A stretch of 64,000 nucleotides of DNA from an uncultured virus (IMG/VR IMGVR_UViG_3300025327_000013) (Duplodnaviria; Heunggongvirae; Uroviricota; Caudoviricetes): IMG/VR virus record IMGVR_UViG_3300025327_000013. The stretch is one strand, 5' to 3'. Shown piece after piece: positions 15,473 through 59,102 of this stretch. The position numbers and the translations under genes are program-made. The first letter of the stretch is position 1, and the number at the start of each line of letters is the position of its first letter. A model generated the notes under the pieces. It did no database searches. It saw only the letters and a program-made list of their open reading frames with translations, and was not told where the DNA came from.

Positions 15473-16577
15473 TGATGCCTGACGCTTGGCCGATGATCAT
15501 GCGTTATCAAGTCAGACCGGACGGTGGATTTGCCTAAGGACGAAGCCAAGTGAACATCCCTAAACTGCTTACTTTATGTATCATCTAAGTCAGATTTACT
15601 CTTGTTTATCTCAGTTTTCCTTATCTTCTCTTCTACTTTGCTGAGTATGTCTTCGAGAGGAGGTGCAGTGAATAGCTAAGTCATTGATCCAGCGACGGAA
15701 CGAACCAAAGAGTTATCTATGCATGCATTTAGCAAATGATTGACGTTGGACTTGACGGTACTACGTGTGCTATGTTCTTGATATGCAGTATCGTCAAGCG
15801 TTGAACTAGAAAGGAGAAAAGAATGAATGTTCCAGAGACAATTGGTCCAGGAGAAGGTATAGCAAATCTGAAGGAAAGGGCTGCAGCCATGACTGTAGCG
15901 CCGCATGTGATGAATCCGGCCACTGAGGCTGCGGCGCAACAGGAAACCACTGTTGTTAGGGCTGAGGCCGACGCTACGAAGTAGTAGTATGGCGAAGGTG
16001 TCTCTGTGCGCTCGGTGTAAGGTCAATCCGCGCACGAAGACGCACCGTTGGTGCAGGTTCTGTCAGACGATGTGGCGGGCGGATCAGCGGCGGGAGGAGA
16101 AATCCGTCAGAGAATCACGGGTGCTTGTCTTTGGATCTCCGTTAGGAGAAGGATAAGGTGAGTACTGGCGTTGGCATGCGTGCCTTCTGGATGCTAGGTC
16201 GTGGTAAGGCTCTGGCTCCGCGTATCAGCCGGAATCGTGGTCGGCCCTACACACAGCGTTATGGGCAGTCGGGACGTGATAAGGCGCGCGAGGTTTCGTT
16301 GACTACGATTCACGGTCAGGAGAATACGAAGTGACACGTTCGTTTATTCTCCTGTGCGTACTCCTGATATTCGGGTGCGCGTCCGCATGGACACGGGTCC
16401 CCGGTGGTTGTGAAGGAATGTATCGTGGGCCTGATTCGGGTGACAGTCCATGCCCGCTGGGTCACCCACCGATCGTGCCTGACCGAGTGCAGGAGAAATG
16501 AGGCAGCTTTTCCGTCGGTTGTTCTCAAAAGTATGGCCGAGCGGTCTGCGTTATAGTGTGGAGCGACGGACAATACT

Positions 16578-16964
16578 GTGGGCTCCGTGGCGTCGTCGAG
16601 GTGGCTTGTCATGAGACAAGGAACGGCTCGCAGCACGAAAGGTTCAAGGGTCACTGACGGTTGGTGGCGCCACACGGGCCGTGAGTTCTGGCGCGTGCGC
16701 TGGCCCCTCGGTATCTCCATCGCGGTTGTGGTATTGCGGAGCCGCGGAATCATTCCGAAGGGGACAGACGAAAGCTTGGTGTTGTATAAGTGCGCGTTGG
16801 CGACCATCGGCTTCGTCTTGGCTCATATGACTCGCCAGCAGGCATTTCCGTACATCAATCTTGGAGAGCTGCTCCGGTCGCGGAGTCCGATGTTTGGCCC
16901 CGCTGTGGTGGGGATGGCGATCATCTATGCGGCCTTCGTATTAGGCATTACCTTGGGATTGTAA
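16578..16964 (+). CDS. putative holin (2/3-TM type; start may be downstream)
   Basis: three hydrophobic segments, LYK...R..FPY pattern, upstream of the endolysin. Confidence 0.65.
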   Translation: MGSVASSRWLVMRQGTARSTKGSRVTDGWWRHTGREFWRVRWPLGISIAVVVLRSRGIIPKGTDESLVLYKCALATIGFVLAHMTRQQAFPYINLGELLRSRSPMFGPAVVGMAIIYAAFVLGITLGL

Positions 16965-17383
16965 TGAGAAGGCGGGGAGGCGTGCGAGGTCGACGATCTC
17001 CTTTACGCGGTACAGGTGTCGTGGGTACCTTCCGTCATCTCGCCGATCGGGCGTCAACCTTCCAGAAACTCGGTGCCGCGATCATCGTGGCCGTGTCGTT
17101 GCTTGGGCTCATGGGGGCGGCGATTACTCGGTATGCGCCCTGGGCATGGGCGTCAGAAGTCAATAAGCGGCAGACAGCAATTGAATCGAAGGTCGACACA
17201 CTGTCGTCTGTCGTCCTGCAAAGTCAAGTTGCGGACGCGGAGAATAAAATCGCGACGCTCGAGGCTAAGGCAGCAGGGAAACAGGGGTTGACGGATGTCG
17301 AAGCGGAATATCTCCGTGGTCAGCGGCGACGGCTGAATGATCTGAATTTGCAGCTTCAGTTACTCAGTAAACCGAGGATGTGA
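16964..17383 (+). CDS. TM plus coiled-coil lysis-module protein
   Basis: single TM (LGAAIIVAVSLLGLMGAAI) followed by a heptad pattern. Confidence 0.5.
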   Translation: MRRRGGVRGRRSPLRGTGVVGTFRHLADRASTFQKLGAAIIVAVSLLGLMGAAITRYAPWAWASEVNKRQTAIESKVDTLSSVVLQSQVADAENKIATLEAKAAGKQGLTDVEAEYLRGQRRRLNDLNLQLQLLSKPRM

Positions 17384-17576
17384 CATGAACACGTCGACAG
17401 AGTACACGAGGCTCCAGGAAGAGAATACGCGTCTTCGGCTTGCACTGAATGCGATGCTTGTCTGGGATCAGGAAGAGCCTCGGTATAAGACGCGTAATGG
17501 TGTTCCCATGGACATGCCAAAGTCCGTCGCGAGACTTCTCAAGAAGGCCGTGGGACATGGATGACCTGATCCTACC

Positions 17577-18251
17577 ATGAGTGTACTGCACGCGATCGGG
17601 TGTTTTTTGTCGATTGTGTTCTGTCCGATAACGTCGGCCGTGCCAGCATCGTCGCCAGCGGTGCTTCCAACGCCGATAACGTCTGTCGTGGTCCCAGTGG
17701 ATCTGCCCAAAGAGATTCCGCGTGAGGTCTTGAAGTATCGGAACATGTTGATCCGGGAAATCCGTGTGATATGGGGAGATGGGGAACCGGCGGAGACGTT
17801 TTTCGGTCAAGTGCATGCCGAGAGCAGGTGGCAGACCGATGCGAAGAGCAAATATGCATCGGGACTTTCCCAATTTACTCCGGATACAGCGCGATGGATG
17901 AACGGACTCTATCCTGTGGACCTCGGGGAAATTTGCGAGGGGGCTGGTGGATGTCCCACTGATCCACGCTGGGCGTTGCGTGCTCTTGTTCGTTTTGATG
18001 ACAGGCTGTATCGAGCAATTACTGGGGCTGCGTCCAAAATAGAGACGTGGGCTTACACGCTGGCGTCATACAATAGTGGGCAGGGGTGGGTGACTCGTGA
18101 ACGGGCGATATCATCAGATCGCTCTCGGTGGTTCGGGGCAACGGAGAAAGTCTGTCTTCGTCGCGCTGACTTCTGTCGTGAGACCAAAAACTACGTGCAT
18201 TCTATAATTGAAAAATGGGCACCACTCTACCGGGCCTGGCTTGCGCGGTAG
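17577..18251 (+). CDS. SLT-family lytic transglycosylase endolysin with hydrophobic N-terminus
   Basis: motifs AES, GLSQF and SYNSG; next to the holin. Confidence 0.85.
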   Translation: MSVLHAIGCFLSIVFCPITSAVPASSPAVLPTPITSVVVPVDLPKEIPREVLKYRNMLIREIRVIWGDGEPAETFFGQVHAESRWQTDAKSKYASGLSQFTPDTARWMNGLYPVDLGEICEGAGGCPTDPRWALRALVRFDDRLYRAITGAASKIETWAYTLASYNSGQGWVTRERAISSDRSRWFGATEKVCLRRADFCRETKNYVHSIIEKWAPLYRAWLAR

Positions 18252-18263
18252 GAGGCTAAGTCA

Positions 18264-19466
18264 ATGCTGAGCCGCCTTGGTTTCCGTTATCGCATTTATC
18301 CGACGCTGGAGCAAGAGGCTAGGCTCTTGGATTGGGAGGATGCGCTTCGGGCGCTGTGGAATGCAGCCAATGAACAGCGTTTGGAGTACTTAAAGCGGCA
18401 CGCCAGCATGCCCAGTGCTTTTGATCAGAGTAACCAGTTGAAAGATCTTCGGGCTGACCTGCCATGGCAAGCCGATTTGCCGCGCCATAGTGCGGACAAG
18501 TTACTTGTGGATCTTGATGCGGCGTGGCAGCGATGTTTCATGAAGTTAGGACGGAAACCCAGATGGAAGAAAAAGGGGCGTGGTGCTATCTCCATAACGG
18601 AGCCGTACTCGAAGGGGTTCCGCTTGACCGCCACCGGCGTGGTCTTTCCGAAGCTCGGGGAGATTCGGGCTGTGTTCCATAGACCGATTCAGGGCATCCA
18701 GAAGATCTGTACCATCAGTCGCGAAGTTAACCAGTGGTTCGTTTCAATTCAGTGTGAGCAGGATGTTCCGGAGCCTGATAGGCGCACCGGCCCGGTGGTA
18801 GCCATCGATCGCGGCATCACAAATCTGCTGGCTGATTCGGATGGTGCGGTGATTAAGAATCCAAAATATCTAGAGGGCGCTATTAAGCGACTGGCACGAG
18901 CTCAGCGTGTAGTCGCAAGGCGGGAGAAAGGTTCTCGCCGACGGGAGCGAGCGAAATTTAAAGTTGCTGTGCTCCATCGAAAGGTTCGTCGGCGGCGCCA
19001 GCACACCCTGCATGTTCTCTCTTCTAACTACGCCAAGAGCCACGGTGTAGTAGTGCTGGAGAGGTTGAATGTGAAGGGAATGGTGCGGAGCAATCTTGGG
19101 CGGCAGATCAGCGATGCTGGATGGTCCACTTTCCGTTCGATGCTTCGCTATAAGCTGGAAGCCACTGGGGGCACGCTCGTTGAGATTCCGGCCCACTACT
19201 CCAGCCAAACCTGTATGGCTTGTGGCGTTGTCAATGCTGCTAATCGGTCGGGCGAGGTCTTCTCTTGTGTGACTTGCGGGTACACGGCGCACGCGGATCT
19301 GAACGCAGCGCAAGTACTCCTCAGCCGCCGAAACGGCGGTGGTGCTGGCCGTGGAGGCTTCCCCGAAGTAAGGGGGCCTGCGAAACGGCAACTCCGCGTT
19401 GTAAGGCGTGGGCGTTCGACTCGACAGTTTGGACTCCCCAAAAGTCCAGACTTTAAGGTCGGATGA
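18264..19466 (+). CDS. tnpB: IS200/IS605-family RNA-guided nuclease TnpB
   Basis: FRYRIYPT N-terminus; RuvC I (AIDRG), II (VLERL), CxxC..CxxC zinc finger, RuvC III (HADLNAA); D-E-D triad intact. Confidence 0.93.
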   Translation: MLSRLGFRYRIYPTLEQEARLLDWEDALRALWNAANEQRLEYLKRHASMPSAFDQSNQLKDLRADLPWQADLPRHSADKLLVDLDAAWQRCFMKLGRKPRWKKKGRGAISITEPYSKGFRLTATGVVFPKLGEIRAVFHRPIQGIQKICTISREVNQWFVSIQCEQDVPEPDRRTGPVVAIDRGITNLLADSDGAVIKNPKYLEGAIKRLARAQRVVARREKGSRRRERAKFKVAVLHRKVRRRRQHTLHVLSSNYAKSHGVVVLERLNVKGMVRSNLGRQISDAGWSTFRSMLRYKLEATGGTLVEIPAHYSSQTCMACGVVNAANRSGEVFSCVTCGYTAHADLNAAQVLLSRRNGGGAGRGGFPEVRGPAKRQLRVVRRGRSTRQFGLPKSPDFKVG

Positions 19467-19473
19467 TGTTTAC
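18266..19473 (+). mobile_element. tnpB-only element (no tnpA, no separate left end); right end ...agtccagactttaaggtcggatgatgtttac
   Basis: IS605-like subterminal hairpin and TTAC end; removing 18266-19473 restores RBS-ATG-GAA-TGG of the downstream gene. Confidence 0.65.
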
Positions 19474-19648
19474 GGAATGGTATTTTACGCTCTTACTCCT
19501 TACGTCTGATGGATCAATCACGAAGCACGAGAAGGCATTCCAGTCTGAAGACGCATGTGTCCGAGCCATGATCAAGGTGAGTGATCAGCCGATCAAGGTT
19601 GGTGAAGGTCGGATCTTATCGAGGTGCCGAACGCGGTCTACCGTGTAG
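19463..19648 (+). CDS. small protein whose start is supplied by the tnpB right end
   Basis: ATGA overlap with the tnpB stop; W.FTL..F.....C..IL..C pattern shared with ORF 63330. Confidence 0.6.
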   Translation: MMFTEWYFTLLLLTSDGSITKHEKAFQSEDACVRAMIKVSDQPIKVGEGRILSRCRTRSTV

Positions 19649-19809
19649 CCGAAGAGGAGGTTTAGCATGGGATTTCGTGGCTGGTTTGAGGTGGCACTGA
19701 TCCTCGTTGCGTTTGTAGGTTGGCGCCGGGAACTTAGCGGTCTGTGGAACACGGTTACACCGCGCTTTGGTGCGTGGCTCGAGACTTGGTTTGCAAAAAA
19801 GCCGCAGTA

Positions 19810-20229
19810 ATGCTCCCCTGGTGGCTCCTGTCGGCATTCAAGAACAAGTGGCTCTGGATTAGCTTGGGCGTTTGCGCGGTCGCGGCTGTTGTATACGTGG
19901 AGGTCGTACCTTGGGTGACGACCCGATATCTTCGTCAGCAGCAACAGGCGAACACGGAGTTTCTGAAAAAAGTCAAGACAGCGGAAACAGAGATCGCAGC
20001 TAAGGATCGAGCGATTCGGAATCTGAGTACGCAGATCCAGGCGCTGACGAAGAAGGCGGACATCGCCCATGCGCAATACCTTGTGATTGCGAAGGATCGC
20101 GATCGGCTCCGATCGCAGACTGAGTCGCTAGCGGTGAAGATCACGACGCTCGAGCGGGAGCGGGCGGAGCTCAAGAAGGTCGAGTCGCTGGGCGAGGCGC
20201 AGAAAGTATTGAATAAGGCGGGGTGGTGA
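19810..20229 (+). CDS. putative i-spanin-like protein
   Basis: N-terminal TM followed by a long coiled coil; in the lysis module. Confidence 0.5.
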   Translation: MLPWWLLSAFKNKWLWISLGVCAVAAVVYVEVVPWVTTRYLRQQQQANTEFLKKVKTAETEIAAKDRAIRNLSTQIQALTKKADIAHAQYLVIAKDRDRLRSQTESLAVKITTLERERAELKKVESLGEAQKVLNKAGW

Positions 20230-20740
20230 AGATGATGATACATGATCCAGTCGGAGGCGTGCCTCCGACATGGTCTTTATGGGTGCTTTTTACGGTTTCG
20301 TGCGTGCTTGGCCCCGCGCTCATACTATGGTTTTAACGTGAGCGATTCTGCGTTTGAGTCGATGGCGGTGGCTCGGGTGTTGCAGTTCTTGGTGTCTGAG
20401 GCTGAATCACTACTTCGTCAAGCCGCTCAGTATCGTCATGAGATGGACGCACTTCCCTCAACCTCCGACATCGAGTCGCTGCGGCGTCTATACGTACAGA
20501 TGATTCTGGATCTTCTTGACCGGTCACGTCGATTGTCGACAGCCGTAACGACGCTCGCTCCCTGTGATTAGTGGAGGGATACATGGTGACATGGACACAG
20601 CATGAAGCACTGGCCGACAGTATGCTTGCTCTTGTGCCCTATTCTGGGGTTGATCGTCCGCGCATCCGACAGGAGATCGTTGAATTGTTGCGTTCGCAGC
20701 ATTGCCAAGGGTGCCAGTGTACCGAAGTCGTGAGGTAAAT

Positions 20741-21259
20741 ATGTGGCTGTGCCATCGATCATTGCTGTGGCTGGTGATGTGGGTTGTTATATATGCGGTA
20801 AGTCTGCCTGCAACCGCTTGGGCCGTGACGTATGAGCTTGATGAGGGCCAAGCCGCGCCAGTGTCGGGGATTCTTCTGGATCAATCTGCCGCGGTGAAGG
20901 CAGTTGAAGCGATACGGGATGTGGAGTCGCTGGTGAAAGAGGTGGCGATACTCAAGCAGCAGGTGATTGCAAAGGGTGCTGAGATCGAGAACCTCGAGGC
21001 ACAGGTCGGTCAGTTGAGGCAGGAGGTCGCTGATCGGGCAACGGCGAATGCGATCAATGAAGACCGCTTCCAGCGCCAGCAGGAGATCGAGGCTCGGTAC
21101 CGGGCGCTGCTGGACGAAGGAGGGAAACTCCTCACGGCCTCGAACGTCGCGCTCAAGCGAGCGGATGAGCGGATTGAGAGCTTGGAAAAGCGGGCATTTT
21201 GGATGACAGTTTTGGCCCCCATCCTTGCGTTCGTGGGATTTCTTGCTGGGGGATTGTAG
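20741..21259 (+). CDS. exported coiled-coil protein with C-terminal TM (spanin-like)
   Basis: signal-peptide-like N-terminus ending AWA, coiled coil, C-terminal hydrophobic helix. Confidence 0.45.
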   Translation: MWLCHRSLLWLVMWVVIYAVSLPATAWAVTYELDEGQAAPVSGILLDQSAAVKAVEAIRDVESLVKEVAILKQQVIAKGAEIENLEAQVGQLRQEVADRATANAINEDRFQRQQEIEARYRALLDEGGKLLTASNVALKRADERIESLEKRAFWMTVLAPILAFVGFLAGGL

Positions 21260-24120: not shown

Positions 24121-25004
24121 CGATAAAATAAATCCAGAAGATCATTTCTGGATGGGTCTCTCGCAAGCGCCGGATATTGAGCGGATGCCGGCAGTGGTGC
24201 TTTGTCCCGCAGGTCATCGAGCGTATCGGCTGATTCTCGAGTTGACGGCTGACTCTGAGCATGACCCTGTACGTGTTCCAGCCTACGGTTGTCAAGCCTG
24301 TCAGGTCCTTTATAGATATCAGGAATGTCCGCGCCTTCCACCAGGGGAAGAAGGCCTCCCTCCGTGTGACGAGACACCGGCATGACATGTCGAGATTTCT
24401 TTGCACGTTTTGCATGGCTTCCGTGTATGTCGGCAGGTGTAGTGCCACCGGAGATCGTGGATGGGTCGGCGTCCTTTGATGACAACGTGGAGGTCATGGT
24501 GCAGGCTGTGACGAAGACATTTGAGCGCGACGTCCGCCGCGGTCGCTTGCCGCAGGTGCTCAATGGGGGCCAGCGTGGCTGAGTATTCCCACGAAGGCGC
24601 ATCGATCTGGGGTTGGTCGACCTTCCGCGCGCTGGCGAAGCACTTTCGTCTGACGGTCTCTGCGCGCCTGACGCCGACGTCTGAACTCATGCTGACGCCC
24701 TATCGCACACAGATGATCGAAGAGGAGGAGCGGGCGCGGCACGAGATGGAAGGGGCGATCGGCGCGTGGCGCCAGGATCTGCTCGTCGGGACTCGGCAGT
24801 GTCCTGCCAAACATCCGGTGATTCCATATGAAATTCGCGTGTCTATGCCGGGGGCGAGTCGGCGCCGCTGGATCCAGTGTTTTCCGAGCATGGAAGGGAA
24901 TTCGGCGGGCTACGTGCCGGTACCAGTGTTTTTTTGTGCCGTGTGCGTTGGGGTATACCGGCCGCGTGAGGTCGAGGTCGTCAGCCAATCAAGCGAGGTG
25001 CCAC

Positions 25005-25562
25005 GTGTCTAGTAAGTACGAGATTGTTGATCGTATTTGTAAGATATGCGGGCAGGAGTACAAGACACAGTTTTGGCGTAATCTTTATTTCTGTAGCAGA
25101 TCCTGTTATCACGTATCTAAAGTCGGAGCGGGGAATCCAAAATGGCGGGGTGGTGAAGTGATCAACAAAGGTTATCGGTACATGTATAACCCGAGTCATC
25201 CAAATGCCACAAAGCAAGGATATGTATTAGAACACCGGCTTGTTATGGAAAGTGCCACTGGGCGGCTTTTGAGTCGTAAGGAAGTCGTGCATCATAAAAA
25301 CGAGAAAACGCTAGAGAATAATCAGGAAAATCTTCTTGTGTGCGAATCCAACGGTCATCATATTTCTGCACATCATCATCCTGATGGCGGCAAGTTTAAT
25401 AGAATGAAGACTCATTGTTTACGTGGGCATGAGTTCACGTTAGACAATACAGTTATACATGTTTGTTTGGGAGTTAGAAAACGTATGTGCAAGGCGTGCG
25501 AGAGCGATAGGAAGAAAAGGGTGTATTGGAATAGGAGGCAAGCAAGTGCGCAAGCCGTGTGA
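25005..25562 (+). CDS. HNH homing endonuclease
   Basis: NPKWRGG, YVLEHRLVME, VHHKNE..NN..NL, C-terminal HC..GH..C..C; AT-rich. Confidence 0.85.
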   Translation: MSSKYEIVDRICKICGQEYKTQFWRNLYFCSRSCYHVSKVGAGNPKWRGGEVINKGYRYMYNPSHPNATKQGYVLEHRLVMESATGRLLSRKEVVHHKNEKTLENNQENLLVCESNGHHISAHHHPDGGKFNRMKTHCLRGHEFTLDNTVIHVCLGVRKRMCKACESDRKKRVYWNRRQASAQAV

Positions 25563-30681: not shown

Positions 30682-33453
30682 ATGGCCCTGACGATTCTCG
30701 ACAACGACGAGGCGCTCGCGGCGAATCCCCAGTCGATATGGATGCAGACCGACATTGACGCCGTCATTGCGGGCTTCAACGGCACCTACGTTGTAAGCGG
30801 CGGTACGGTCACAGCCCAGAGCACACCGGATATGACTGTCGCCGTCGCCGCCGGGACGGTAGCGGTGGGCGGGGTCATTGCGGCGCTCGGCGCTGGGAAC
30901 GTGACGATCAGCGCCGCCGACGCGACGAACTCCCGTGTGGACTTGATCTGGTCCGACGAGACTGGGACGCGGGGGATCACCGCCGGGACCGCGGCGGCGA
31001 ACCCGAAGGCCCCGGCGCTCCCCGCGAGCAAGGTCCTCCTCGCTATGGTCTACGTCCCTACGAACGACACCGATATCGACGCTGACCAGATCACCGACAA
31101 GCGCGTGATCGTGCCGCACAACGGCACGGCCGGTACACTCGCCAAGTTCAGCAACGGGACGACCCTGGTAAACTCGATCCTCTCCGAGAGCGGGGCGGTG
31201 GCGACGGTGAATGGGTCGCTAAAACTGGCCGAGCTGGTCGGATCGGAACTGGTCACCAACGGAAATTTTGCGACCGGATCTGCCGATGGGTGGACGACAA
31301 CTGGGTGGACGGTGAACGTCGGTGTGGATGTCCAACATGACACGGGGAACACGACGGCGCTCACGCCCAGCACGCCGATTGTGCCTGTCATTGGCTTGCT
31401 GTACAAACTGGTCTATACCGTCTCTAGCCGGACGGCGGGGACGATCAGCGAGGGCTTCGGCGGCGGCGGGTCTGGCGCAGCCCGTTCCACCAACGCGACG
31501 TTCACCGTCTATTTTCGTACAACTTCGACAGCTAATTTGACATTCACCCCGACCACTGACTTCGATGGGCACATCGACGATGTCTCGCTCATCGAACAAA
31601 TCGGGGGCGTCCTTGTACCGCGAAGTTCTGGCGGCAGCCTTGCGTTCTTGCAGTGGAATGAGGGCACTGGCAGCGGCTCGAACGCCAGTGTCAGTGTCGG
31701 GCCGTTCGCTGGCGATATCCAAGCGTTACGGAACACGTGGATTGGCGGGCGAGCGGGTCCCACAAACAAACAATCGGTCGGCACGGACAATGCCGTAGTC
31801 GGCTATGGCTCGCTCGTAGGCACGACGAGCCAACAGGTCGGTTCTCGTAATCTCGTGATCGGCGCCGAGGGCATGAAGTCCTACGGTGGCGATGATGTGA
31901 TCGCATTCGGGAATCGCATCGGGTTTGACGTGACGAACACGATGGAACGCACGATCCTCATCGGCCACAATCGCGCAGCGGCGGCAAGTGTTGGTGACGT
32001 GGGGAGCACGGACGCAGTCATCATCGGCAACATCATTGCCGATTCGGACCCTGACCTACTGGACTTCAGTATCATCATTGGGGCTGAGGCGCTGGGCGGC
32101 GTGAATGCGGTCGGCATCGGCTATGACGTGAGCGCGATCGCCAATACGATTGCGATTGGCTACAAAGCATCCACGTCGGCGGCCAATGATCTGGTCATCG
32201 GGGGGAATGATGTCGCCGCTGGCGGCGTGACACAGGCCTATATCGGAGCCGGCAAAACGAAAGTCAGTCCAACCGCCGTCACATGGCAGACGACTGGTGG
32301 GAGCGGCACCGATAACGTCGGCGCCGATCTGACGCTGGCGCCGGGTCGCAGCACGGGGAATGCCGCGGCGGGGTCGCTCTTCTTCGCTACGTCGACGCCC
32401 GGCGCGTCCGGGGTGACGCTCCGCGCGCTGGCAAACCGCTGGAAGATCAGCGGGCCGATCCCGGCGAGCGGGAATCTGGGCGACCTCCTCGCCGCTACCG
32501 ATAACGCCGTCAACATTGGGGCTGATGCGGCGAACCGTCCGAAGACTGTGCACGTCGCGACGAGCGTCATCGTAGGCGGCAACACCGTCATCGGGAGCGT
32601 CGCGGGGAAGCTCAACGCGGCGCTCCTCGCCATCGCGTCGCAAGCGACCGGGGATCTGCTCTACGCGGACTCAACGAGTACCTTCGCTCGATTGGCCGCA
32701 GGCGCCACGGGCACCTATGTACGCGGGGCTGGGGCTGGCACAGCTCCGATCATGAGTACGCTCACTCTCCCGAACGCCGCAACGACCGGCGACACGTTTA
32801 TCGCGACGGGCACCAATGCGATGGGAGTCGTCGCAGCGGGGGCGACGGGCGCCTACTTCCGGGGTGCCGGTGCCGCGACCGCACCGATCTGGTCCACCTT
32901 GATCCTACCGAACGGGGCCACGACGGGCGACACATTCGTGGCCAGTGGCACGAACGTGATGGGCGTGGTGGCGGCGGGCGCGGTCGGCACGGTGTTCAGC
33001 GGCGGGGGGGCCGGGGTAGCCCCGTCGTGGCTGATCCCCGGCAATACAACGCTTGTGATTCCAGGCACGAACCTCACGGCGAGCGGTCCGCAAACGAGCG
33101 CGTTCCAGGCCGGGGGGACGATCACCGCGGGGGACCTGGTGATCCTCAACTCGTCGAGCCAGTGGGTGCAGACGGACGCCAACGCGGTGGCGACGTACAA
33201 TGGGCTACTTGGCATCTCGCTGGAGTCGAAAACAGTCGGTCAGGCGATGCTAGTCGCGCTCCCGGGCTCGCTCGTGCGGAATACGGCGTGGGCCTGGACA
33301 CCTGGCGCGACGCTCTACCTCTCGGAGACGGCGGCGACGATTACGGAAACCCAACCCGTGACGACAGACGCGGCGATCCGGGTCATTGGACATGCTGTAG
33401 ATGCAGATGATATTTATTTTGGGCCTGACGGTGCATGGATCACACATGTTTGA
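30682..33453 (+). CDS. mosaic tail-fibre/adhesin protein
   Basis: Gly/Thr/Ala-rich; carbohydrate-binding-like ELVTNGNF segment, YadA-like AVGIG/AIG repeats, internal ~44-aa repeats. Confidence 0.7.
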   Translation: MALTILDNDEALAANPQSIWMQTDIDAVIAGFNGTYVVSGGTVTAQSTPDMTVAVAAGTVAVGGVIAALGAGNVTISAADATNSRVDLIWSDETGTRGITAGTAAANPKAPALPASKVLLAMVYVPTNDTDIDADQITDKRVIVPHNGTAGTLAKFSNGTTLVNSILSESGAVATVNGSLKLAELVGSELVTNGNFATGSADGWTTTGWTVNVGVDVQHDTGNTTALTPSTPIVPVIGLLYKLVYTVSSRTAGTISEGFGGGGSGAARSTNATFTVYFRTTSTANLTFTPTTDFDGHIDDVSLIEQIGGVLVPRSSGGSLAFLQWNEGTGSGSNASVSVGPFAGDIQALRNTWIGGRAGPTNKQSVGTDNAVVGYGSLVGTTSQQVGSRNLVIGAEGMKSYGGDDVIAFGNRIGFDVTNTMERTILIGHNRAAAASVGDVGSTDAVIIGNIIADSDPDLLDFSIIIGAEALGGVNAVGIGYDVSAIANTIAIGYKASTSAANDLVIGGNDVAAGGVTQAYIGAGKTKVSPTAVTWQTTGGSGTDNVGADLTLAPGRSTGNAAAGSLFFATSTPGASGVTLRALANRWKISGPIPASGNLGDLLAATDNAVNIGADAANRPKTVHVATSVIVGGNTVIGSVAGKLNAALLAIASQATGDLLYADSTSTFARLAAGATGTYVRGAGAGTAPIMSTLTLPNAATTGDTFIATGTNAMGVVAAGATGAYFRGAGAATAPIWSTLILPNGATTGDTFVASGTNVMGVVAAGAVGTVFSGGGAGVAPSWLIPGNTTLVIPGTNLTASGPQTSAFQAGGTITAGDLVILNSSSQWVQTDANAVATYNGLLGISLESKTVGQAMLVALPGSLVRNTAWAWTPGATLYLSETAATITETQPVTTDAAIRVIGHAVDADDIYFGPDGAWITHV

Positions 33454-34087
33454 GCGTGGAGATCTGCGCTTTCACTGGTCACGACAACCGAATGCGGAAG
33501 AAATTCGGGCGAGGATTGCCGCTACTAACAAGGCACATTCTCCGCGGTACTGGCTTGGAAGGGTTCATTCTGAGGAAACGAAGCTCAAGGTTAGCCTGAC
33601 GAAAAAAGCAAGCGCAACGACGGTTCGTGGGACACGGCATCATAATTGGAAGGGCGGCGTAACATCGGAACATTCGATCGCACGTAAGAGTCTCCAATAT
33701 GTAACCTGGCGCGATGCTGTGTACCGCCGTGACGGATGGCGCTGTACTGTCTGCGGTGATCGACATGATCTTGTGGCACATCATATCAAGTCTTTCTCGG
33801 AGCATCGAGAGTTGCGCTTTGATATTGCGAACGCTCAAACGCTGTGTCGGGGCTGTCATGCAAAACATCACGGCGTAGCATATATACAGCCGAAGCGAAC
33901 ACCTCGATCTGAAAGTGATCCGATTGCTCGCATTGAACGTAAACGTGAATCGCGGCGACAGTACTATCTGCGTAACCGTGAGCGCTGTATAGCTCGTCAG
34001 ACGCAGCGCTACAAAAATGATCCAGAACGATTTCGGGCTTACGCCCGACAATATTATAAGCGCATGTCTAGCCAGCGTGTGGGGTGA
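33446..34087 (+). CDS. HNH homing endonuclease with NUMOD3-like motif
   Basis: HSEETKLKVS, HNWKGG, RDGWRCTVCG..L.AHHIK..N..TLCRGCH. Confidence 0.85.
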   Translation: MFERGDLRFHWSRQPNAEEIRARIAATNKAHSPRYWLGRVHSEETKLKVSLTKKASATTVRGTRHHNWKGGVTSEHSIARKSLQYVTWRDAVYRRDGWRCTVCGDRHDLVAHHIKSFSEHRELRFDIANAQTLCRGCHAKHHGVAYIQPKRTPRSESDPIARIERKRESRRQYYLRNRERCIARQTQRYKNDPERFRAYARQYYKRMSSQRVG

Positions 34088-38771: not shown

Positions 38772-41528
38772 GTGCCGATGGATACGCTTCTAAAGGGAAC
38801 ACGAGCATCGCAACAAGTATGCTTGCGATTTGTTATCCGTGATCCGCTCGCGTTTCGCGAGTACTGGGTGCCCCAGGTCTCGAAGCTCCGGTACTGGGGA
38901 CGGTATACCTTTGCGGTGCCGATCGCGGCATTGGATGATGGTGATACGCTTGTGCGGGCCGGGAGGGCAGGCGGGAAGTCGTACGCAATAATCCAGCCAG
39001 AACTTGTCCGCCATGCAATGAATCATCCTGGAGAGGAAACACTCCTGACGTCCCTGCGTTTTCTGCATATTATGGATCGCATGGAGCGCGTGATTGACTA
39101 TTTCAACTTGCCGTTTTTTAAGTTGTTCGTGAAGCGTATTATCCGGTCTCCGTATTCCATAGAACTCCGGACGGGGCATATCATTTACGGCCAAAGCGTT
39201 GGAGAAGATTACGATGCGCGCATGATTCAAGGCAAGCATGCATCGCTGCTCATCGTCGAAGAAGCGCAACAGTATCCCGAACGTGCCTGGATTAAGATAC
39301 AGGGCGCGAAGGATCCTCGAGGATCGAGGACGCTCATGGTTGGTGTGCCTGATGGGCGACTGGATACGCCATTCCGAAAGGCAGATTCGATCATTCAAAG
39401 TTTTGCTGATCGACGTTTCGAGATTTCGAGACGTCACGATCCGTTCTTTGATCAACGAACGAAGCGCGATCTTGCGGACAATCTTGACGGGGAAGATTCC
39501 GACATGTTCATTCAGGAGATCGACGCGAAGTGGGGGCATCCCGTGTGGTCCGCGTGGGATCTGGATGCGATCTACAAGTGCCGGGAATCGGCGTTGAGTC
39601 CAGAGTTCTTCGTCATATCCGGTAAGTTATATAAGCAAGCCGGGTTGACGCCATCAGGTGCATGTGGAGATCTTCCGCCGTGTCCGTATGACGGGAGAGT
39701 TCGGCTGGCTATGGACGTCGGGTACTCGCAGCCATCAGAGATACTCGCGTTTGTGTTCTGGGCCAGCCGGTGGCAGTTATTCACACGCGTGCGGCTTATC
39801 AATCGTATGGAGCACACAGATCAGGCGGATATCCTGCATGAGATCGGGAGAAAGTATGGAGCGGATTACATTGGGATTGACACGACAGAGGGTGAAGGTC
39901 GTGCAATTGCGCAAGACATGGAAAGCAAATACGGGTGGGGTGAACGTATTATTCGTGTCGCATTCACGGAAACTCTGCTTTCTGGATGGACGGCTGGGTC
40001 GGTGGACGCTGAGCCAGAAGAAGTCTGGGAACATGCGAAGTCCATCGGGACACGGACCTTGCGTACGATGTTTTCGAAGAGGAACATCGCGATCTCGCAT
40101 GATGAAAGCATTCCGACGGAATTCAATCGGGAGCGCGAGGTAAGGAACCAAGACGGGACAACACGTGTGATTACCCCCTTTGACGTGCATTGTGTTCGTC
40201 CAGATCAATGTGTAACGACTCGGCGAGGTCATATTCCTATCGCCAATATTGTAGTTGGTGATGAGGTCCTGACGCATCGGGGGCGGTGGTGTCGAGTACG
40301 TACTGTCTTATCAAGGCCATATGAAGGCGAAATGATTGGATTGAGGGCTGGATGTAATAATCATGCGTGGGTAACGCCAGAACATCCAGTTCTTGTGCTG
40401 AGAAGAAAGAAAGACTGGTGGACATCTACGAAAACATGTCAGCGCCATTACAAGATTAATCGTAAGGCTAAGCTGGGTCAGCCTGAATGGATTGTAGCCG
40501 GTAATGTAGAAGCTGGTGATTTGATACAAATGGTAGCGGACCATACGAATTACGAGGATCGTGTACCTATACTGCAGATCCTTGATGAATTAGGTAAGCC
40601 TTATGGGCGTCAGTGTGTGTCGAGGCGCGAATATAGGACGAATGTTACACATGTAGTTCCTGCCAAGGTTGAAGTAGATGAGGACCTCGCATACGTTATG
40701 GGCTTGTATCTAGCAGAAGGTTCGGTAGAGCGACAACCGAATGGAAATATTCGTACCTTTTCTTTTGGTTTTCATCAAAAAGAAATTGCATATATTGAGT
40801 GTGTACAGCGTGTGATGCGAGAGAAGTTTGGTCTTCCGTCATCAACTCGGAATGCACCAGGACTCGGTATGCAAGTTGACGTACATTCAGCTGCGGTAGG
40901 AGAAGCATTTGCGAGGGCCTTTGGTGTGCTGTCCGCCAATATAGGTCCACCTCGTTGGCTCCTTGAGGCTCCACGCCAAATAGTTGCGGCGTGGATTCGT
41001 GGATTATTCCAGGGTGATGGATCTAGGTGCACTAGAAATAAAACACCATACTGGAGACTACATACGATCTCGCACAATATGGCTTTGTTAACTGTAGACG
41101 CACTGCGTAGTCTGGGATTTCGGGCCATGGCTGGACTCTACGATAATAGTGTGCGTGGAAAATTCAATAGACAAGACGCGTGGACTCTCAATGTGTCAAC
41201 TGATGTAGCGCCGTTCGATGATTTCATGCGCACTGGTGTTCTGCCACTTCCATGGACATGGAATGAGTGGACGGTTGTACGGCAACCTATTGCGAGACAG
41301 CGGTATTCAGGACTCGTGTATAACCTCGAAGTTGAACACGATGAAACATTCACGGTGAGTGGAATAACTGTTCATAATTGCACTGATGCCTTCCGTGTCT
41401 TTGCTGTCATGGAATTCCTGGAGACGCCCCTGATACCGCCCGATGCAACGGAAGGCGGTGTGTTTGTGGAGTTGGAACATGGGGATCGTCCAAGCCCATG
41501 GGCGCCGGTGACGGCGTATCCATTTTAG
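38772..41528 (+). CDS. terL: terminase large subunit with intein
   Basis: Walker A RAGRAGGKS, Walker B LLIVEEAQ, nuclease MDVG..., IGIDTT, DVH|CTDAFR after splicing. Confidence 0.88.
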   Translation: MPMDTLLKGTRASQQVCLRFVIRDPLAFREYWVPQVSKLRYWGRYTFAVPIAALDDGDTLVRAGRAGGKSYAIIQPELVRHAMNHPGEETLLTSLRFLHIMDRMERVIDYFNLPFFKLFVKRIIRSPYSIELRTGHIIYGQSVGEDYDARMIQGKHASLLIVEEAQQYPERAWIKIQGAKDPRGSRTLMVGVPDGRLDTPFRKADSIIQSFADRRFEISRRHDPFFDQRTKRDLADNLDGEDSDMFIQEIDAKWGHPVWSAWDLDAIYKCRESALSPEFFVISGKLYKQAGLTPSGACGDLPPCPYDGRVRLAMDVGYSQPSEILAFVFWASRWQLFTRVRLINRMEHTDQADILHEIGRKYGADYIGIDTTEGEGRAIAQDMESKYGWGERIIRVAFTETLLSGWTAGSVDAEPEEVWEHAKSIGTRTLRTMFSKRNIAISHDESIPTEFNREREVRNQDGTTRVITPFDVHCVRPDQCVTTRRGHIPIANIVVGDEVLTHRGRWCRVRTVLSRPYEGEMIGLRAGCNNHAWVTPEHPVLVLRRKKDWWTSTKTCQRHYKINRKAKLGQPEWIVAGNVEAGDLIQMVADHTNYEDRVPILQILDELGKPYGRQCVSRREYRTNVTHVVPAKVEVDEDLAYVMGLYLAEGSVERQPNGNIRTFSFGFHQKEIAYIECVQRVMREKFGLPSSTRNAPGLGMQVDVHSAAVGEAFARAFGVLSANIGPPRWLLEAPRQIVAAWIRGLFQGDGSRCTRNKTPYWRLHTISHNMALLTVDALRSLGFRAMAGLYDNSVRGKFNRQDAWTLNVSTDVAPFDDFMRTGVLPLPWTWNEWTVVRQPIARQRYSGLVYNLEVEHDETFTVSGITVHNCTDAFRVFAVMEFLETPLIPPDATEGGVFVELEHGDRPSPWAPVTAYPF
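40191..41378 (+). mobile_element. 396-aa intein with LAGLIDADG endonuclease
   Basis: starts CVRPDQ, has TPEHP block B, LAGLIDADG helices GLYLAEGS and GLFQGDGS, ends VYNLEV..VHN followed by Cys; AT-richer than the exteins. Confidence 0.92.
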
Positions 41529-43527: not shown

Positions 43528-44178
43528 ATGAAGGAGACCATTTCGGTTGTGATTCCGTGTCGGACGACGGACGTTCCGAGAGAGACGATAGAATCCCTGT
43601 TTGCGCAGACCTATAAGCACCTCGAGTTTATTATCGTGGTGGACGCTGAGCAGCGTGGGCAAAGCTGGGCGCGAAATCAGGGGATTCAACGGTCGTCTTA
43701 TTCCCTTGATGAGATCGAAGCCAGCCGACTGATACTCTTTAGTGACTATGATTGTCGCTGGGAACCTGACGCCGTAGAGTGCCTCTACGATACGCTGTGC
43801 ACCGCACAGACAAAGCCACGTGATACCGATGATTGGGTAATAGGATATTCGTTCCCTAGCTACGTACAGTTATTGGACGGTGTGCCTGTGAAAACCTTTG
43901 GCCTCGAGCCGTGGAGTTGGCCACGCCTGACCTTTGGGAATTACATCACCATGATGAGTCTAGTGGATATTGATGTTTTGAAAGGTATCTTACATTTCGA
44001 CGAGCGCCTTCGGCGATTGGAAGACTGGGATTTGTGGCTTCGGTGTGGACAGCACGGCATTGCTGGAGTGGGCACGGGCAGGATTCTATTTACCACGGAC
44101 GTCAAGCCTGGGGTGAGTTACGGTGATCTGTCTCATGCGGAAGCGGAGATACAGGTGAGGAAACTGAGGGGGCTATGA
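43528..44178 (+). CDS. GT2 glycosyltransferase
   Basis: ISVVIP, ARNQG, FSDYD, FDE.L..EDWDLWLR. Confidence 0.88.
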   Translation: MKETISVVIPCRTTDVPRETIESLFAQTYKHLEFIIVVDAEQRGQSWARNQGIQRSSYSLDEIEASRLILFSDYDCRWEPDAVECLYDTLCTAQTKPRDTDDWVIGYSFPSYVQLLDGVPVKTFGLEPWSWPRLTFGNYITMMSLVDIDVLKGILHFDERLRRLEDWDLWLRCGQHGIAGVGTGRILFTTDVKPGVSYGDLSHAEAEIQVRKLRGL

Positions 44179-45116
44179 AGAATCTCGGCCCAGGTGATGT
44201 CGTACTTGTGACTGGTGGTAGCGGGTCACTTGCCAGGGCTCTGATTCCACAGATTCTTACTGCTGGTGTAGATGAATTACGTATCTTGTCTCGCGATGAA
44301 GTCAAGCAGGGGGAAATCCACACGCTGTATCCAAATGTCAGGTGTATCTTGGGAGATGTCCGCGATCTCCGGGCGTGTAAAGAAGCCGTGCGCGGGGCCA
44401 CGATTGTCTTGCATGCGGCCAGTCTCAAATTTATTGACGTCTCGGAACTCCAGCCGACAGAGTATGTCCTCACGAATGTCCTCGGCACGATTAATATGAT
44501 CCAAGCAGTCACGCAAGAGGGCGGCGTGGATAGAATGATCGGAATCAGTACTGATAAAGTGGCCAATGCTATTAATACATACGGATTGACTAAGGCGCTC
44601 CTTGAGAAGCTCTTCATGGAATCTCATACGCATCGTAAAAGAACAGGAACGACCTTCGTTGTCTGCCGCTATGGGAATGTCATCGCATCGCGTGGTTCGG
44701 TTCTGCTCAAGTGGGCGGAGGCACGGAAGACCGATGCTCCGTTACTCGTGACGGATCCTACTATGACACGCTTCTTCTTCACGTTGGACGAGGCCGTCGA
44801 TCTGATAGATCTGGCGCTGGTGCAGGAATCTGGGGTAATCGTCTCCAAGGCGATGTCCTCGACCACGCTAGGGGAGTTAGCGGAGGTGATGGCTGGGCCA
44901 GCCGGGGTGCGTATCATCGGGCGTCGTCCAGGAGAAAAGGTTCATGAGGATCTGTTGTCGGAACTGGAAATGCCGCGCGTGATACGGCAAGAAGGATTCT
45001 TCTTCTACCGACCCTTGTCAACACCACATGAGACGACGGAACCTGCGTATACGTCCTTCACCGCTCGCCGATTGACGCCGGATGAACTGATGGAGTTGAC
45101 GGAGCCATGGCGGTGA
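44175..45116 (+). CDS. NDP-sugar 4,6-dehydratase (PseB/CapD-like SDR)
   Basis: VTGGSGS, STDK, YGLTK, RYGNV..SRGSV, MTRF, RPGEK.HE. Confidence 0.9.
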   Translation: MKNLGPGDVVLVTGGSGSLARALIPQILTAGVDELRILSRDEVKQGEIHTLYPNVRCILGDVRDLRACKEAVRGATIVLHAASLKFIDVSELQPTEYVLTNVLGTINMIQAVTQEGGVDRMIGISTDKVANAINTYGLTKALLEKLFMESHTHRKRTGTTFVVCRYGNVIASRGSVLLKWAEARKTDAPLLVTDPTMTRFFFTLDEAVDLIDLALVQESGVIVSKAMSSTTLGELAEVMAGPAGVRIIGRRPGEKVHEDLLSELEMPRVIRQEGFFFYRPLSTPHETTEPAYTSFTARRLTPDELMELTEPWR

Positions 45117-46186
45117 CAGTCGGCATCTCTATCGTTTCGATGAATCGACCGCAGATCCTCCGTCAAACGATCTCGCGCCTGACCTGCAATCCACAGATCC
45201 CGCAGGATCGGATCGTGATCGTCGACAACGGGTCGACGGACCCTGAGACGCTGGCGCTGTTAGAGACGCAAGCGCGTGAGGGCTGGCACATCGTGCGCAA
45301 TGCGACGAACTTGGGTCTCTCGCGTGCGGTCAATCAGGGCTTGGCTGAGTTCGCGGCTGATTCGGATTTACTCCTCCATATGGACGATGATGCCCTCGTG
45401 CATCCTGCGGAGACGGACGATTGGTTGGCGCGCATGGTGGATACTATGGTCAACTGTCCGGAGCTCGGGCTCCTCTTGCCGAATACGGAGAACTATACAG
45501 AGTTTATTCAGCACGATCGGTATCGGGAACTGCGGTGGGGGCTCGGGATGATGTGGGTGCTTCGACGAGATGTGTACACCATTGTAGGGGGCTACGATCA
45601 GCAACTCCTACATCAAAATGAATGTGATCTCGCCTTACGTGTGCGCATGGCGGGATATACAGTGGGGGCAATGAACGTTAAGGTCATGCATAACGATCCT
45701 GGTGGTCCACGATCTGATCTATCATTAGCGCGAGAGCATTTAGGCACAGTGCAGTTCAATGATAAGCATTGTGGGTACTTTCGCGGACGAGCGTGGTCAT
45801 ACGGCACAGTTCCAGTATACAGAATGCAACAGTGGCCGCCGGATCAGGAATGGTACCGAAGATTCTCGAAAGCTAATGCCATCGAATTGAATCCTGCGCC
45901 ACCAGAGTATCGAGTAGAAAATGTGCAACCTGGTGAGCGTGTCATTGAAATTATTGAGGTGAGCGAGCAAGGGAAGATCGAAGGTAAGGCCCTGGCGCGC
46001 CGTATTTTCATTGCGGGGGCGTGGTATTTCTGTATCGTTGGGCTTACAAACGAATACGCGCACTGGGCACGTGGGACTGGATACCTCGATGACCGGGATC
46101 GTGCGATCGCCAAGTGGTTCGAGTTGACTGGTGAGAAGTACGAAGGGTACAAGTGGCCGTGTAATCTGCTTAAGCCGGCTGAATAA
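45107..46186 (+). CDS. GT2 glycosyltransferase
   Basis: IVDNGSTD, NLGLSRAVNQG, HMDDD, GGYD, ECDLALR. Confidence 0.88.
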   Translation: MAVTVGISIVSMNRPQILRQTISRLTCNPQIPQDRIVIVDNGSTDPETLALLETQAREGWHIVRNATNLGLSRAVNQGLAEFAADSDLLLHMDDDALVHPAETDDWLARMVDTMVNCPELGLLLPNTENYTEFIQHDRYRELRWGLGMMWVLRRDVYTIVGGYDQQLLHQNECDLALRVRMAGYTVGAMNVKVMHNDPGGPRSDLSLAREHLGTVQFNDKHCGYFRGRAWSYGTVPVYRMQQWPPDQEWYRRFSKANAIELNPAPPEYRVENVQPGERVIEIIEVSEQGKIEGKALARRIFIAGAWYFCIVGLTNEYAHWARGTGYLDDRDRAIAKWFELTGEKYEGYKWPCNLLKPAE

Positions 46187-46861: not shown

Positions 46862-46865
46862 AAGA

Positions 46866-56232: not shown

Positions 56233-56259
56233 CTCGACATGTGTTGAGATAAACCACTC

Positions 56260-56505: not shown

Positions 56506-56556
56506 TCTGACGCAGACTTGACGTACAGGCGTTCATCTTGGTAGTGTTGTGGCGAA

Positions 56557-56745: not shown

Positions 56746-56795
56746 CTAATACTCCGGCCTTGCGCCGGTTGACATTCCACCAAGCGAGCGAGCCT

Positions 56796-59073: not shown

Positions 59074-59102
59074 TCCCACGCACACAGGAGGAGTGATGAA
59101 TC

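What the first reader, a model, noticed from the sequence alone, without database searches (positions are those of the whole stretch)
18251..19500. Left-end-less tnpB inserted into a start codon, rebuilding it at its right end
Seen: tnpB starts 12 nt after the endolysin stop (ggaggctaagTCAAT|G), leaving no room for a left-end hairpin or tnpA. Its ORF runs through the presumed omegaRNA to a hairpin and ...ATGATGTTTAC|GGAATGGTAT. Joining the flanks gives ggaggctaagtcaATG GAA TGG TAT TTT, a normal RBS and start for the downstream gene (MEWYFTLL...). With the element present, tnpB uses that RBS and start, while the right end supplies an in-frame ATG ATG TTT AC|G coupled to the tnpB stop. Known: TnpB cuts TAM plus right-flank sequence at the empty allele, and the RuvC triad here is intact. 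Inference: this is a phenotypically silent RNA-guided homing element (TAM about TCAAT, guide about GGAATGGTATTTTACG) that spreads between co-infecting phages like the window's protein-guided homing endonucleases. The junction is ambiguous by one G.
Basis: partly seen in the sequence, partly recalled or inferred. Interest (0 to 1): 0.8.

Follow-up and report, generated by a model that had tools for sequence, protein, structure and literature searches.

The report
Transposase-less TnpB cassette in phage lysis operon
An uncultured soil phage carries an intact RNA-guided nuclease gene (tnpB) with its guide-RNA scaffold, but no transposase and no left end, wedged between its endolysin gene and the next small gene so that both are still translated; it probably persists or spreads as an RNA-guided homing element, though no cutting or empty allele has been seen.

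Summary
A 400-codon tnpB (18264-19466) starts 12 nt after the endolysin stop. It uses the AGGAGG at 18250-18255 and ends in ATGA overlap with a 61-codon gene.

Shown here:
- It is an insertion. Two related phages (L013, L012) keep the flanking lysis genes in order without tnpB.
- The right end is real. A 70%-identical copy in an unrelated phage (L105) shares TGATGTTTACG and then diverges.
- The last ~175 nt fold into a shared structure, with 10 of 55 pairs compensatory, and synonymous sites there are frozen. This fits an omegaRNA scaffold.
- The RuvC triad (D182, E266, D345) and the CCCC zinc finger are intact.
- No left end or tnpA was found. Similarity to L105 begins at the start codon, and the first 25 codons show no extra nucleotide constraint.

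Not shown:
- The exact junction. Three homologues of the downstream protein read M-x-E/A-W, not the predicted M-E-W.
- The TAM.
- Any empty allele in near-identical genomes. All four runs laid on the window carry the insertion.
- Any cleavage.

L105 sits in an intergenic spacer, not at a start codon.

Verdict: a new variant of a known kind (TnpB homing), of moderate interest.

The parts
17577..18251 (+). SLT-type lytic transglycosylase (endolysin); native C-terminus, not altered by the insertion
   Evidence: Pfam SLT. The C-terminal W-L-x-R end is shared with homologues (alignment of 12 of 21 hits).
18250..18255 (+). Shine-Dalgarno AGGAGG overlapping the endolysin stop, 8 nt before the tnpB ATG; probably the former ribosome-binding site of the downstream small gene
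   Evidence: Sequence. Its former role is inferred.
18264..19466 (+). tnpB ORF, 400 aa; RuvC D182 (18807-18809), E266 (19059-19061), D345 (19296-19298); CCCC zinc finger C317/C320/C335/C338
18264..19474 (+). Inserted segment as delimited by similarity to the second copy L105. The left limit is uncertain within 18252-18270; the right limit is 19473 or 19474.
   Evidence: The segment is absent from L013 and L012.
19300..19473 (+). Predicted omegaRNA scaffold overlapping the last 55 codons of tnpB and the right end
   Evidence: RNAalifold with L105 gives 55 pairs, 10 of them compensatory. The single-sequence fold has z = -2.62. Synonymous third-position identity is 0.84 in codons 351-375, against 0.24-0.73 in the other 25-codon blocks.
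19413..19465 (+). Long imperfect right-end hairpin (inner stem 19426-19434 / 19444-19452)
   Evidence: 7 of its 15 pairs change on both sides between the two copies and stay paired.
19464..19474 (+). Conserved right terminus TGATGTTTACG: the tnpB stop, an overlapping ATG, and the element end
   Evidence: Identical in the window and L105, after which the flanks diverge.
19474..19490 (+). Predicted guide template (the flank just 3' of the right end), equal to codons 2 onward of the ancestral small gene
   Evidence: Inferred from ISDra2 biology (passages of PMC13565253). The 16-mer is unique in the window.
19463..19648 (+). Small conserved gene (61 codons as read here). Its first 3-4 codons come from the element's right end. 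It overlaps the tnpB stop (ATGA).
   Evidence: The protein database holds only forms that start MFT.. or MMFT...
19667..20229 (+). Rest of the lysis cassette: a 47-aa membrane peptide (19667-19810) and a 161-aa protein with a transmembrane segment and coiled coil, spanin-like (19744-20229). Both are syntenic in L012 and L013.
   Evidence: The 'spanin-like' label is my reading of the sequence, not a tool result.

Best explanation
A tnpB-omegaRNA module of an ISDra2-like family lies between the endolysin gene and the next small gene. Its closest named relatives are from NC10/Methylomirabilota. It has no transposase and no left end.

It is read as part of the late lysis operon. tnpB takes over the AGGAGG and the start position that formerly served the small gene. 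The small gene is now translated from the ATG(s) in the element's conserved right terminus, coupled to the tnpB stop.

The transcript running through the last ~175 nt of tnpB and 16-20 nt into the small gene is processed into an omegaRNA. Its guide matches the uninterrupted junction. In a cell co-infected by a related phage that lacks the insertion, TnpB-omegaRNA cuts that junction. Repair from the carrier copies the cassette in, or the rival is simply excluded. This is free-standing, TnpA-independent 'non-restorative' homing.

Shown: the insertion, the right end, the conserved RNA structure, the intact catalytic residues, the absence of tnpA and left end, and long residence in the phage. Inferred: RNA production, the TAM, cleavage, and copying between phages.
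For: - Insertion. L013 (endolysin 69% identical) goes from the endolysin stop through 21 nt to the homologue of the small gene. L012 (64%) goes straight to the next gene. Downstream genes are 62-80% identical.
- Right end. TGATGTTTACG is shared with L105, which is 69% identical ungapped, in a phage that has no homologue of this endolysin.
- RNA. 55 consensus pairs, 10 compensatory. Synonymous-site identity is 0.84 in codons 351-375.
- Nuclease. D182/E266/D345 and the four zinc cysteines are invariant in 17 of 17 aligned sequences.
- No left end. The flanks upstream of the start codon are unrelated, 3 of 12 alike. Synonymous identity in codons 1-25 is 0.40, as elsewhere.
- No transposase. No Y1 TnpA (PF01797) in G001 and G008, which are fragments of the same phage, or in G007, the L105 contig. 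The control search rang in 6 of 14 genomes.
- Long residence. GC and GC3 of each copy match its own phage: 0.56/0.59 in the window and 0.65/0.78 in L105.
- Setting. Five protein-type homing endonuclease domains in the window.
- Precedent. TnpA-independent, TnpB-dependent drive of IS605 between plasmid copies (passages of 10.1101/2025.02.20.638934). Homing between co-infecting phages is named as a theoretical case in PMC13565253.
Against: - No empty allele among near-identical genomes. All 6 loci at 100% identity are filled. In 4 of 4 runs every contig bridging a junction is filled, and there are no joints. The protein collection holds only the right-end-initiated forms of the small protein.
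- The element looks fixed, so there may be nothing left to home into.
- The only tnpB-free relatives are too diverged to be targets: L013 matches 10 of 16 guide positions (my count).
- The TAM is unknown.
- No RNA data exist: no run listed as a holder is recorded as RNA.
- No promoter-like site in 16500-20500.
- With only two DNA copies, the absence of a left end in the family as a whole is not established.
Confidence: 0.5

Rival explanations
1. Stranded passenger. An IS605/IS1341-type element jumped in from the host with a host TnpA acting in trans, and later lost its left end. It now survives only because its position happens not to disturb the operon. TnpB does nothing useful or selfish in the phage.
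For: The family is abundant and multi-copy outside phages: 403 homologues at E<=1e-20, clusters of 23-46 members, and names NC10/Methylomirabilota. The element appears fixed with no empty allele. TnpB-like genes are common in phage records, 547 of 50,697.
Against: Both phage copies keep the catalytic triad, the zinc finger and a covarying RNA scaffold, although their composition is fully ameliorated to two different phages. That argues for long-term selection on function. Two unrelated phages would each have had to lose the left end exactly up to the start codon.
Confidence: 0.25
2. Domesticated weapon without copying. The phage keeps TnpB-omegaRNA to destroy related competitors, or some other target, during co-infection. 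It excludes the competitor's genome without inserting a copy of the cassette into it.
For: The anatomy is the same as for homing. The carrier is immune because the insertion separates the TAM from the target. The plasmid work reports protection against competing IS-minus plasmids (passages). The review cites killing of competitor phages by homing endonucleases as a benefit (passages).
Against: This cannot be told apart from homing with the present data. The guide 16-mer has no other match with up to 3 mismatches in the window, and no competitor allele carrying the target was found.
Confidence: 0.15
3. Ordinary non-autonomous IS whose left end is hidden inside the first codons of tnpB or in the 12-nt spacer. 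It would still be mobilisable by a host TnpA.
For: RNAalifold pairs the 12-nt left flank with codons 18-21 in both copies, with 5 'compensatory' pairs. A 6-bp hairpin lies at about codons 17-22 in both copies.
Against: The flank-to-interior pairing is not better than chance: 244 of 5000 shuffles and 431 of 5000 random 12-mer pairs reach it, and the single-copy duplex energies are unremarkable. Synonymous sites in codons 1-25 are as free as elsewhere (0.40). The candidate hairpin does not resemble the right-end hairpin, and its 3' arm is shifted by 2-3 nt between the copies.
Confidence: 0.1

Closest known systems
ISDra2 TnpB-omegaRNA (IS200/IS605 family, Deinococcus radiodurans)
   Same: Same three Pfam domains and a similar length (400 vs 408 aa). 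Alignable over residues 4-350, E 1.1e-34. Same catalytic triad and zinc finger. The ORF tail overlaps the guide-RNA scaffold at the right end.
   Different: No tnpA and no left end. The TAM-contact positions differ: K76/F77/Q80/T123/N124 correspond to R74/H75/D78/Y115/S116, so TTGAT cannot be assumed. The gene is embedded in a phage operon and uses a neighbour's ribosome-binding site.
TnpB-driven transposon homing and the plasmid 'gene drive' (Meers et al. 2023, PMC10055086, seen only as search listing and abstract start; Mears et al. preprint 10.1101/2025.02.20.638934, passages read)
   Same: The proposed logic is the same: the guide is templated by the right flank, the uninterrupted site is cut, and repair uses the carrier as template. 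In plasmids this works without active TnpA.
   Different: Those systems are complete IS605 elements in chromosomes or plasmids. Here the element has no ends for TnpA and sits in a lytic-type phage operon. The word 'phage' does not occur in that preprint's text.
Free-standing homing endonuclease genes of phages (T4 Seg/Mob; 'intronless homing')
   Same: A nuclease gene lies between two conserved phage genes. It is absent from relatives and is predicted to cut the allele that lacks it. The window also carries five domains of the HNH or LAGLIDADG type.
   Different: Recognition would be by RNA guide plus TAM, not by protein. Carrier and target are told apart by the presence or absence of the insertion itself.
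IS1341-type tnpB-only elements
   Same: tnpB without tnpA; the right end carries a structured RNA.
   Different: As described in the review (passages), IS200/IS605-family elements have hairpin-forming left and right ends. No left end is detectable here.
Phage-encoded TldR (nuclease-dead TnpB-like repressors; search listing only)
   Same: A phage-borne TnpB descendant with a fixed guide.
   Different: TldR proteins lack an active RuvC site. Here the triad is intact.

Membership tests
TnpB (RNA-guided nuclease of IS200/IS605/IS607 elements) | HTH + OrfB_IS605 (RuvC) + zinc-ribbon TNB domain architecture | tested here: met
   all three Pfam families score above their curated cut-offs.
TnpB (RNA-guided nuclease of IS200/IS605/IS607 elements) | RuvC D-E-D triad and CCCC zinc finger | tested here: met
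   D182/E266/D345 and C317/C320/C335/C338, by alignment to 8bf8, with residue numbers from PMC10097598. Invariant in 17 of 17 sequences.
TnpB (RNA-guided nuclease of IS200/IS605/IS607 elements) | Structured omegaRNA scaffold overlapping the 3' end of the gene and the right end | tested here: met
   In silico only: 55 pairs with 10 compensatory, z = -2.62, frozen synonymous sites. No Rfam family matched.
TnpB (RNA-guided nuclease of IS200/IS605/IS607 elements) | TAM-dependent, guide-dependent DNA cleavage | not testable with these tools
   Needs a biochemical or plasmid-interference assay.
IS200/IS605 insertion sequence (autonomous or IS1341-type) | Y1 transposase tnpA in the element, or at least in the genome | tested here: not met
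   No ORF lies between the endolysin and tnpB. PF01797 was not found in G001, G008 or G007, with the control ringing in 6 of 14 genomes. The 129-kb contig behind L010 is not held and was not searched.
IS200/IS605 insertion sequence (autonomous or IS1341-type) | Left end with a subterminal hairpin | tested here: not met
   Only 12 nt precede the ATG. They are unrelated to the L105 flank. There is no extra nucleotide constraint in codons 1-25, and the flank pairing is at chance level. Only two DNA copies were available.
IS200/IS605 insertion sequence (autonomous or IS1341-type) | Right end with a hairpin and a conserved terminus | tested here: met
IS200/IS605 insertion sequence (autonomous or IS1341-type) | Insertion 3' of a fixed 4-5-nt target, without duplication | tested here: inconclusive
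   The two left flanks share 2-3 of 5 positions in any register. No duplication abuts the ends.
Homing endonuclease gene (free-standing, phage) | Presence/absence between otherwise collinear relatives | tested here: met
   L013 and L012 lack it, but they are only 64-69% identical in the endolysin.
Homing endonuclease gene (free-standing, phage) | A cleavable empty allele exists in the population | tested here: not met
   None found: all 6 loci at 100% identity are filled, no joints in 4 runs, and no alternative N-terminus of the small protein in the collection. Contigs can hide rare variants.
IStron (group I intron fused to IS605/IS607) | Group I intron 5' of the transposon genes | tested here: not met
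   No room upstream (12 nt) and no Rfam intron match in 17000-21000.
TldR (nuclease-dead TnpB-like repressor) | Inactivated RuvC site | tested here: not met
   The triad is intact.

The most novel reading that the evidence does not exclude
Some TnpB lineages have given up transposition altogether. They live in phages as free-standing RNA-guided homing endonuclease genes: no TnpA, no left end, the ORF starting at the element boundary so that it borrows the ribosome-binding site of the gene it displaces, and a conserved right terminus (stop codon overlapping an ATG) that restarts translation of that gene. The cassette would then be phenotypically silent and would spread by cut-and-copy between co-infecting phages. 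The two copies seen here (window and L105), each long resident in an unrelated phage, would be members of such a lineage.
Probability: 0.3. Interest if true: 0.75.

Novelty: new variant of a known kind. Interest (0 to 1): 0.5.

Why it matters
TnpB is understood as a helper that keeps IS200/IS605 transposons from being lost. TnpA-independent drive has been shown only with engineered plasmids (passages). Spread between co-infecting phages is so far a theoretical row in a review table.

A natural phage cassette with no transposase and no left end, yet with an intact nuclease and a covarying guide scaffold, would show that the RNA-guided nuclease alone can be a self-sufficient selfish element. It would also be a step on the road from transposon helper to stand-alone guided nuclease.

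My literature searches listed no paper describing such a phage cassette. This scan's own unchecked notes list several look-alikes in other phages, so the pattern may be general.

This particular example is weakened by the lack of a near-identical empty allele.

Tried and rejected
- **Empty allele or near-identical relatives.** blastn against GenBank phages found nothing. Viral-contig scans with the endolysin, TnpB, the right-flank 26-mer, a scaffold 23-mer and the small-protein alignment returned only the window's own phage record plus L105 and distant hits.
- **Empty site for L105.** The terminase-like neighbour found only itself.
- **DNA of the 66-76% bacterial relatives.** Not obtainable. 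The genome-contig scan with the single protein reached only 37% identity or less. Five genomes reached through loci had at most 38%. Two blind phylum-wide searches (401 genomes each, around G002 and G003) had 0 matches at E<=1e-60. GenBank phages and plasmids had only hits under 60%.
- **Sequencing runs.** No run listed as a holder is recorded as RNA. The four runs laid gave no joints. The loose ends in X14 at 19357 and 19408 read, when translated, like a P0026-type paralogue from another genome, not like an empty site.
- **Left-flank pairing.** The pairing of the left flank with codons 18-21 was rejected as chance.
- **10-nt exact repeat** GTCAATGCTG at 18260 and 19230. About one such pair is expected by chance in 1.46 kb (my estimate).
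- **Rival junction.** I considered that the ATG CTG at 18264-18269 belonged to the small gene, because L013 and P0148 read L-E-W-Y-F. It is unlikely: 14 of 17 family members start M-L, and all 17 start at the same alignment column. It is not excluded.
- **IS607-type ends.** Considered because the review gives a CGG terminus for them. L105 does not end in CGG.
- **Signals.** No sigma-70-like promoter in 16500-20500 and no terminator-like site inside the element.
Full report
**What is there.** The window is a phage genome segment. Around the finding lies a lysis cassette on the + strand: an SLT-type endolysin (17577-18251), a 400-codon ORF (18264-19466), a 61-codon ORF (19463-19648), a 47-codon membrane peptide and a 161-codon protein with a transmembrane segment and coiled coil. 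The 400-codon ORF is a TnpB. Pfam gives HTH_OrfB_IS605, OrfB_IS605 and Cas12f1-like_TNB, all above their cut-offs. It aligns over residues 4-350 with ISDra2 TnpB (8bf8, E 1.1e-34). Using the residue numbers in the structure paper (passages of PMC10097598), D191/E278/D361 map to D182/E266/D345 and the four zinc cysteines to C317/C320/C335/C338. All are invariant in an alignment of the window protein with 16 of the 120 listed homologues.

**It is an insertion.**
- The endolysin's C-terminus (W-L-x-R, then stop) is shared with homologues (12 of 21 hits aligned), so nothing is missing from that gene.
- A metagenome scan with the endolysin alignment gave 57 loci. I compared the window's proteins with all 66 loci then held.
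- The six loci with a 100%-identical endolysin (L001, L002, L005, L006, L010, L011, from three records) all carry tnpB.
- Two related phages do not. In L013 (endolysin 69%, downstream genes 77-80%) the endolysin stop is followed by 21 nt and then GTG CTC GAA TGG.., which opens a 59-codon homologue (53-54% identical) of the small gene.
- In L012 (endolysin 64%) the endolysin is followed directly by the 47-codon gene, with neither tnpB nor the small gene.

**The right end.**
- One further DNA copy of this TnpB family could be obtained: L105, 69% identical ungapped (70% by tblastn), in an 88-kb viral contig. That contig has no homologue of this endolysin.
- The two copies share TGATGTTTACG at the end of the ORF and are unrelated after it.
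- The last ~175 nt fold into a common structure of 55 pairs. Ten of those pairs change on both sides and stay paired, and seven of the ten lie in the long hairpin at 19413-19465.
- The single-sequence fold has z = -2.62.
- Among codons with the same amino acid, third-position identity between the copies is 0.84 in codons 351-375 and 0.24-0.73 in the other 25-codon blocks.
- I take this as good in-silico evidence for an omegaRNA scaffold. No Rfam family matches.

**The left end.**
- Similarity between the copies begins at the start codon, which is ATG here and GTG in L105. The 12 nt before it agree at 3 of 12 positions.
- All 17 aligned family proteins start at the same column, and 14 of 17 start M-L.
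- Synonymous sites in codons 1-25 are as free as elsewhere (0.40).
- RNAalifold suggested pairing between the flank and codons 18-21. It is not better than chance: 244 of 5000 shuffles and 431 of 5000 random 12-mer pairs reach it.
- No Y1 transposase (PF01797) was found in two fragments of the same phage (G001, G008) or in the L105 contig (G007). The control search rang in 6 of 14 genomes.
- Both phage copies therefore lack a recognisable left end and a transposase. With two copies this is suggestive for the family, not proof.

- *The junction.* Splitting tnpB's own ATG between flank and element is a choice, not an observation. It predicts an ancestral M-E-W-Y-F start. A profile search of 1.84 billion representatives found 6 proteins at E<=0.001. 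Three of them are small proteins other than the window's own, and they begin M-L-E-W-Y-F (the L013 protein), M-M-H-A-T-I-L-E-W-Y-F and M-T-A-W-V-F. Each has one more residue before the conserved E/A-W. The true left limit can lie anywhere in 18252-18270.
The positions that contact the TAM in ISDra2 differ from ISDra2, and several also differ between the two copies. I infer that the TAMs differ and cannot be read off.
- *The start-codon idea as a family rule.* L105 sits in a spacer, 25 nt after one ORF and 38 nt before a 551-codon ORF. There the right-end ATG opens only a 10-codon reading frame that stops 6 nt before the next gene. The stop-overlapping ATG is thus a conserved feature of the right terminus. 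Its in-frame fusion to the small gene here is a one-in-three outcome that selection would favour.
- *Homing.* No empty allele was found. In the four runs laid, contigs bridge the left junction in 4 of 4 and the right junction in 3 of 4, always filled, with no joints. The protein collection holds only forms of the small protein that start MFT.. or MMFT... The element looks fixed.

**Origin and age.** The family is large: 403 proteins at E<=1e-20 among 8000 scored candidates. Apart from a 99% variant, the closest are 66-76% identical. Clusters have up to 46 members, and the only organism names given are NC10 and Methylomirabilota. GC and GC3 of each phage copy match its own phage: 0.56/0.59 against an endolysin GC3 of 0.56 here, and 0.65/0.78 against 0.78 in L105. 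Both copies are therefore old residents, yet both keep the catalytic residues and the RNA structure. That argues for continued selection on function.

**Mechanism I consider most likely (confidence 0.5).** The cassette is transcribed with the lysis operon; no promoter-like site and no terminator-like site lies in or at the element. tnpB is translated from the AGGAGG and ATG that formerly served the small gene. The small gene is translated from the right-end ATG(s), coupled to the tnpB stop. An omegaRNA ending in the first 16-20 nt of the small gene guides TnpB to the uninterrupted junction in related phages. The result is copying of the cassette into the rival phage, or its exclusion. The window also carries three HNH and two LAGLIDADG endonuclease domains, so co-infection and homing seem common in this phage's ecology. 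The rivals are a stranded passenger (0.25), a weapon without copying (0.15) and a hidden left end (0.1).

**Comparison with what is known.**
- TnpB genes are common in phages: 547 of 50,697 GenBank phage records match at E<=1e-5, all below 60% identity. A cyanophage tnpB identical to host copies has been described (passages of 10.64898/2026.02.14.705889).
- TnpB-driven homing is established for complete IS605 elements (Meers et al., PMC10055086, seen only as listing and abstract start).
- TnpA-independent drive has been shown for plasmids (passages).
- A 2026 review lists 'transposon non-restorative homing' between co-infecting phages or plasmids as theoretical (passages of PMC13565253).
- My four literature searches listed no description of a phage-borne tnpB cassette without a left end that is translationally spliced into an operon.
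- This scan's own unchecked notes list at least eight look-alikes in other phages. These are leads only.

I therefore rate this a new variant of a known kind. It is of moderate interest, and a weaker exemplar than one with a near-identical empty allele.

Noticed in passing
L013:4500-5140: In the tnpB-free relative, the endolysin gene carries an insertion of about 155 codons with no Pfam domain. GC falls from about 0.70 to about 0.48 across the insertion and the last ~45 endolysin codons, and rises again at the next gene. This looks like a foreign block that ends exactly at the same endolysin/next-gene junction. Another homologue (P0007) has a different insertion at the same position.
   Followed up: partly
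window 24828-25562, 33401-34087, 38772-41528, 50276-50800, 53095-53730: Five ORFs with homing-endonuclease-type domains: HNH_3, HNH, LAGLIDADG_3 inside a 918-aa protein (possibly an intein), HNH_3+AP2, and LAGLIDADG_1.
   Followed up: no
window 43528-63322: A long run of sugar-modification genes in a phage: several GT2 and GT4 glycosyltransferases, Polysacc_synt_2 (9.6e-66), two CmcI-type methyltransferases and a GT9-like domain.
   Followed up: no
G007:C1:73779-74885 (L113): The viral contig that holds L105 has a second, distant TnpB-like frame, 32% identical, with one in-frame TGA.
   Followed up: no
window 19357 and 19408 (run X14): Contigs in one soil run match the conserved scaffold region and then run on with unlike sequence. 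Translated, that sequence resembles the C-terminus of the P0026-type bacterial relatives. A paralogous copy of the family therefore lives in the same community.
   Followed up: partly
window 18870-19391 (- strand): A 173-codon open frame lies antisense to tnpB. A preprint reports a reverse-strand protein in a cyanophage/Anabaena tnpB. Here it may simply reflect base composition.
   Followed up: no
P0023: A 99%-identical TnpB variant of 397 aa lacks three residues (D-V-P) after C-E-Q, on a separate 2.7-kb contig. A closely related strain therefore carries the gene as well.
   Followed up: no
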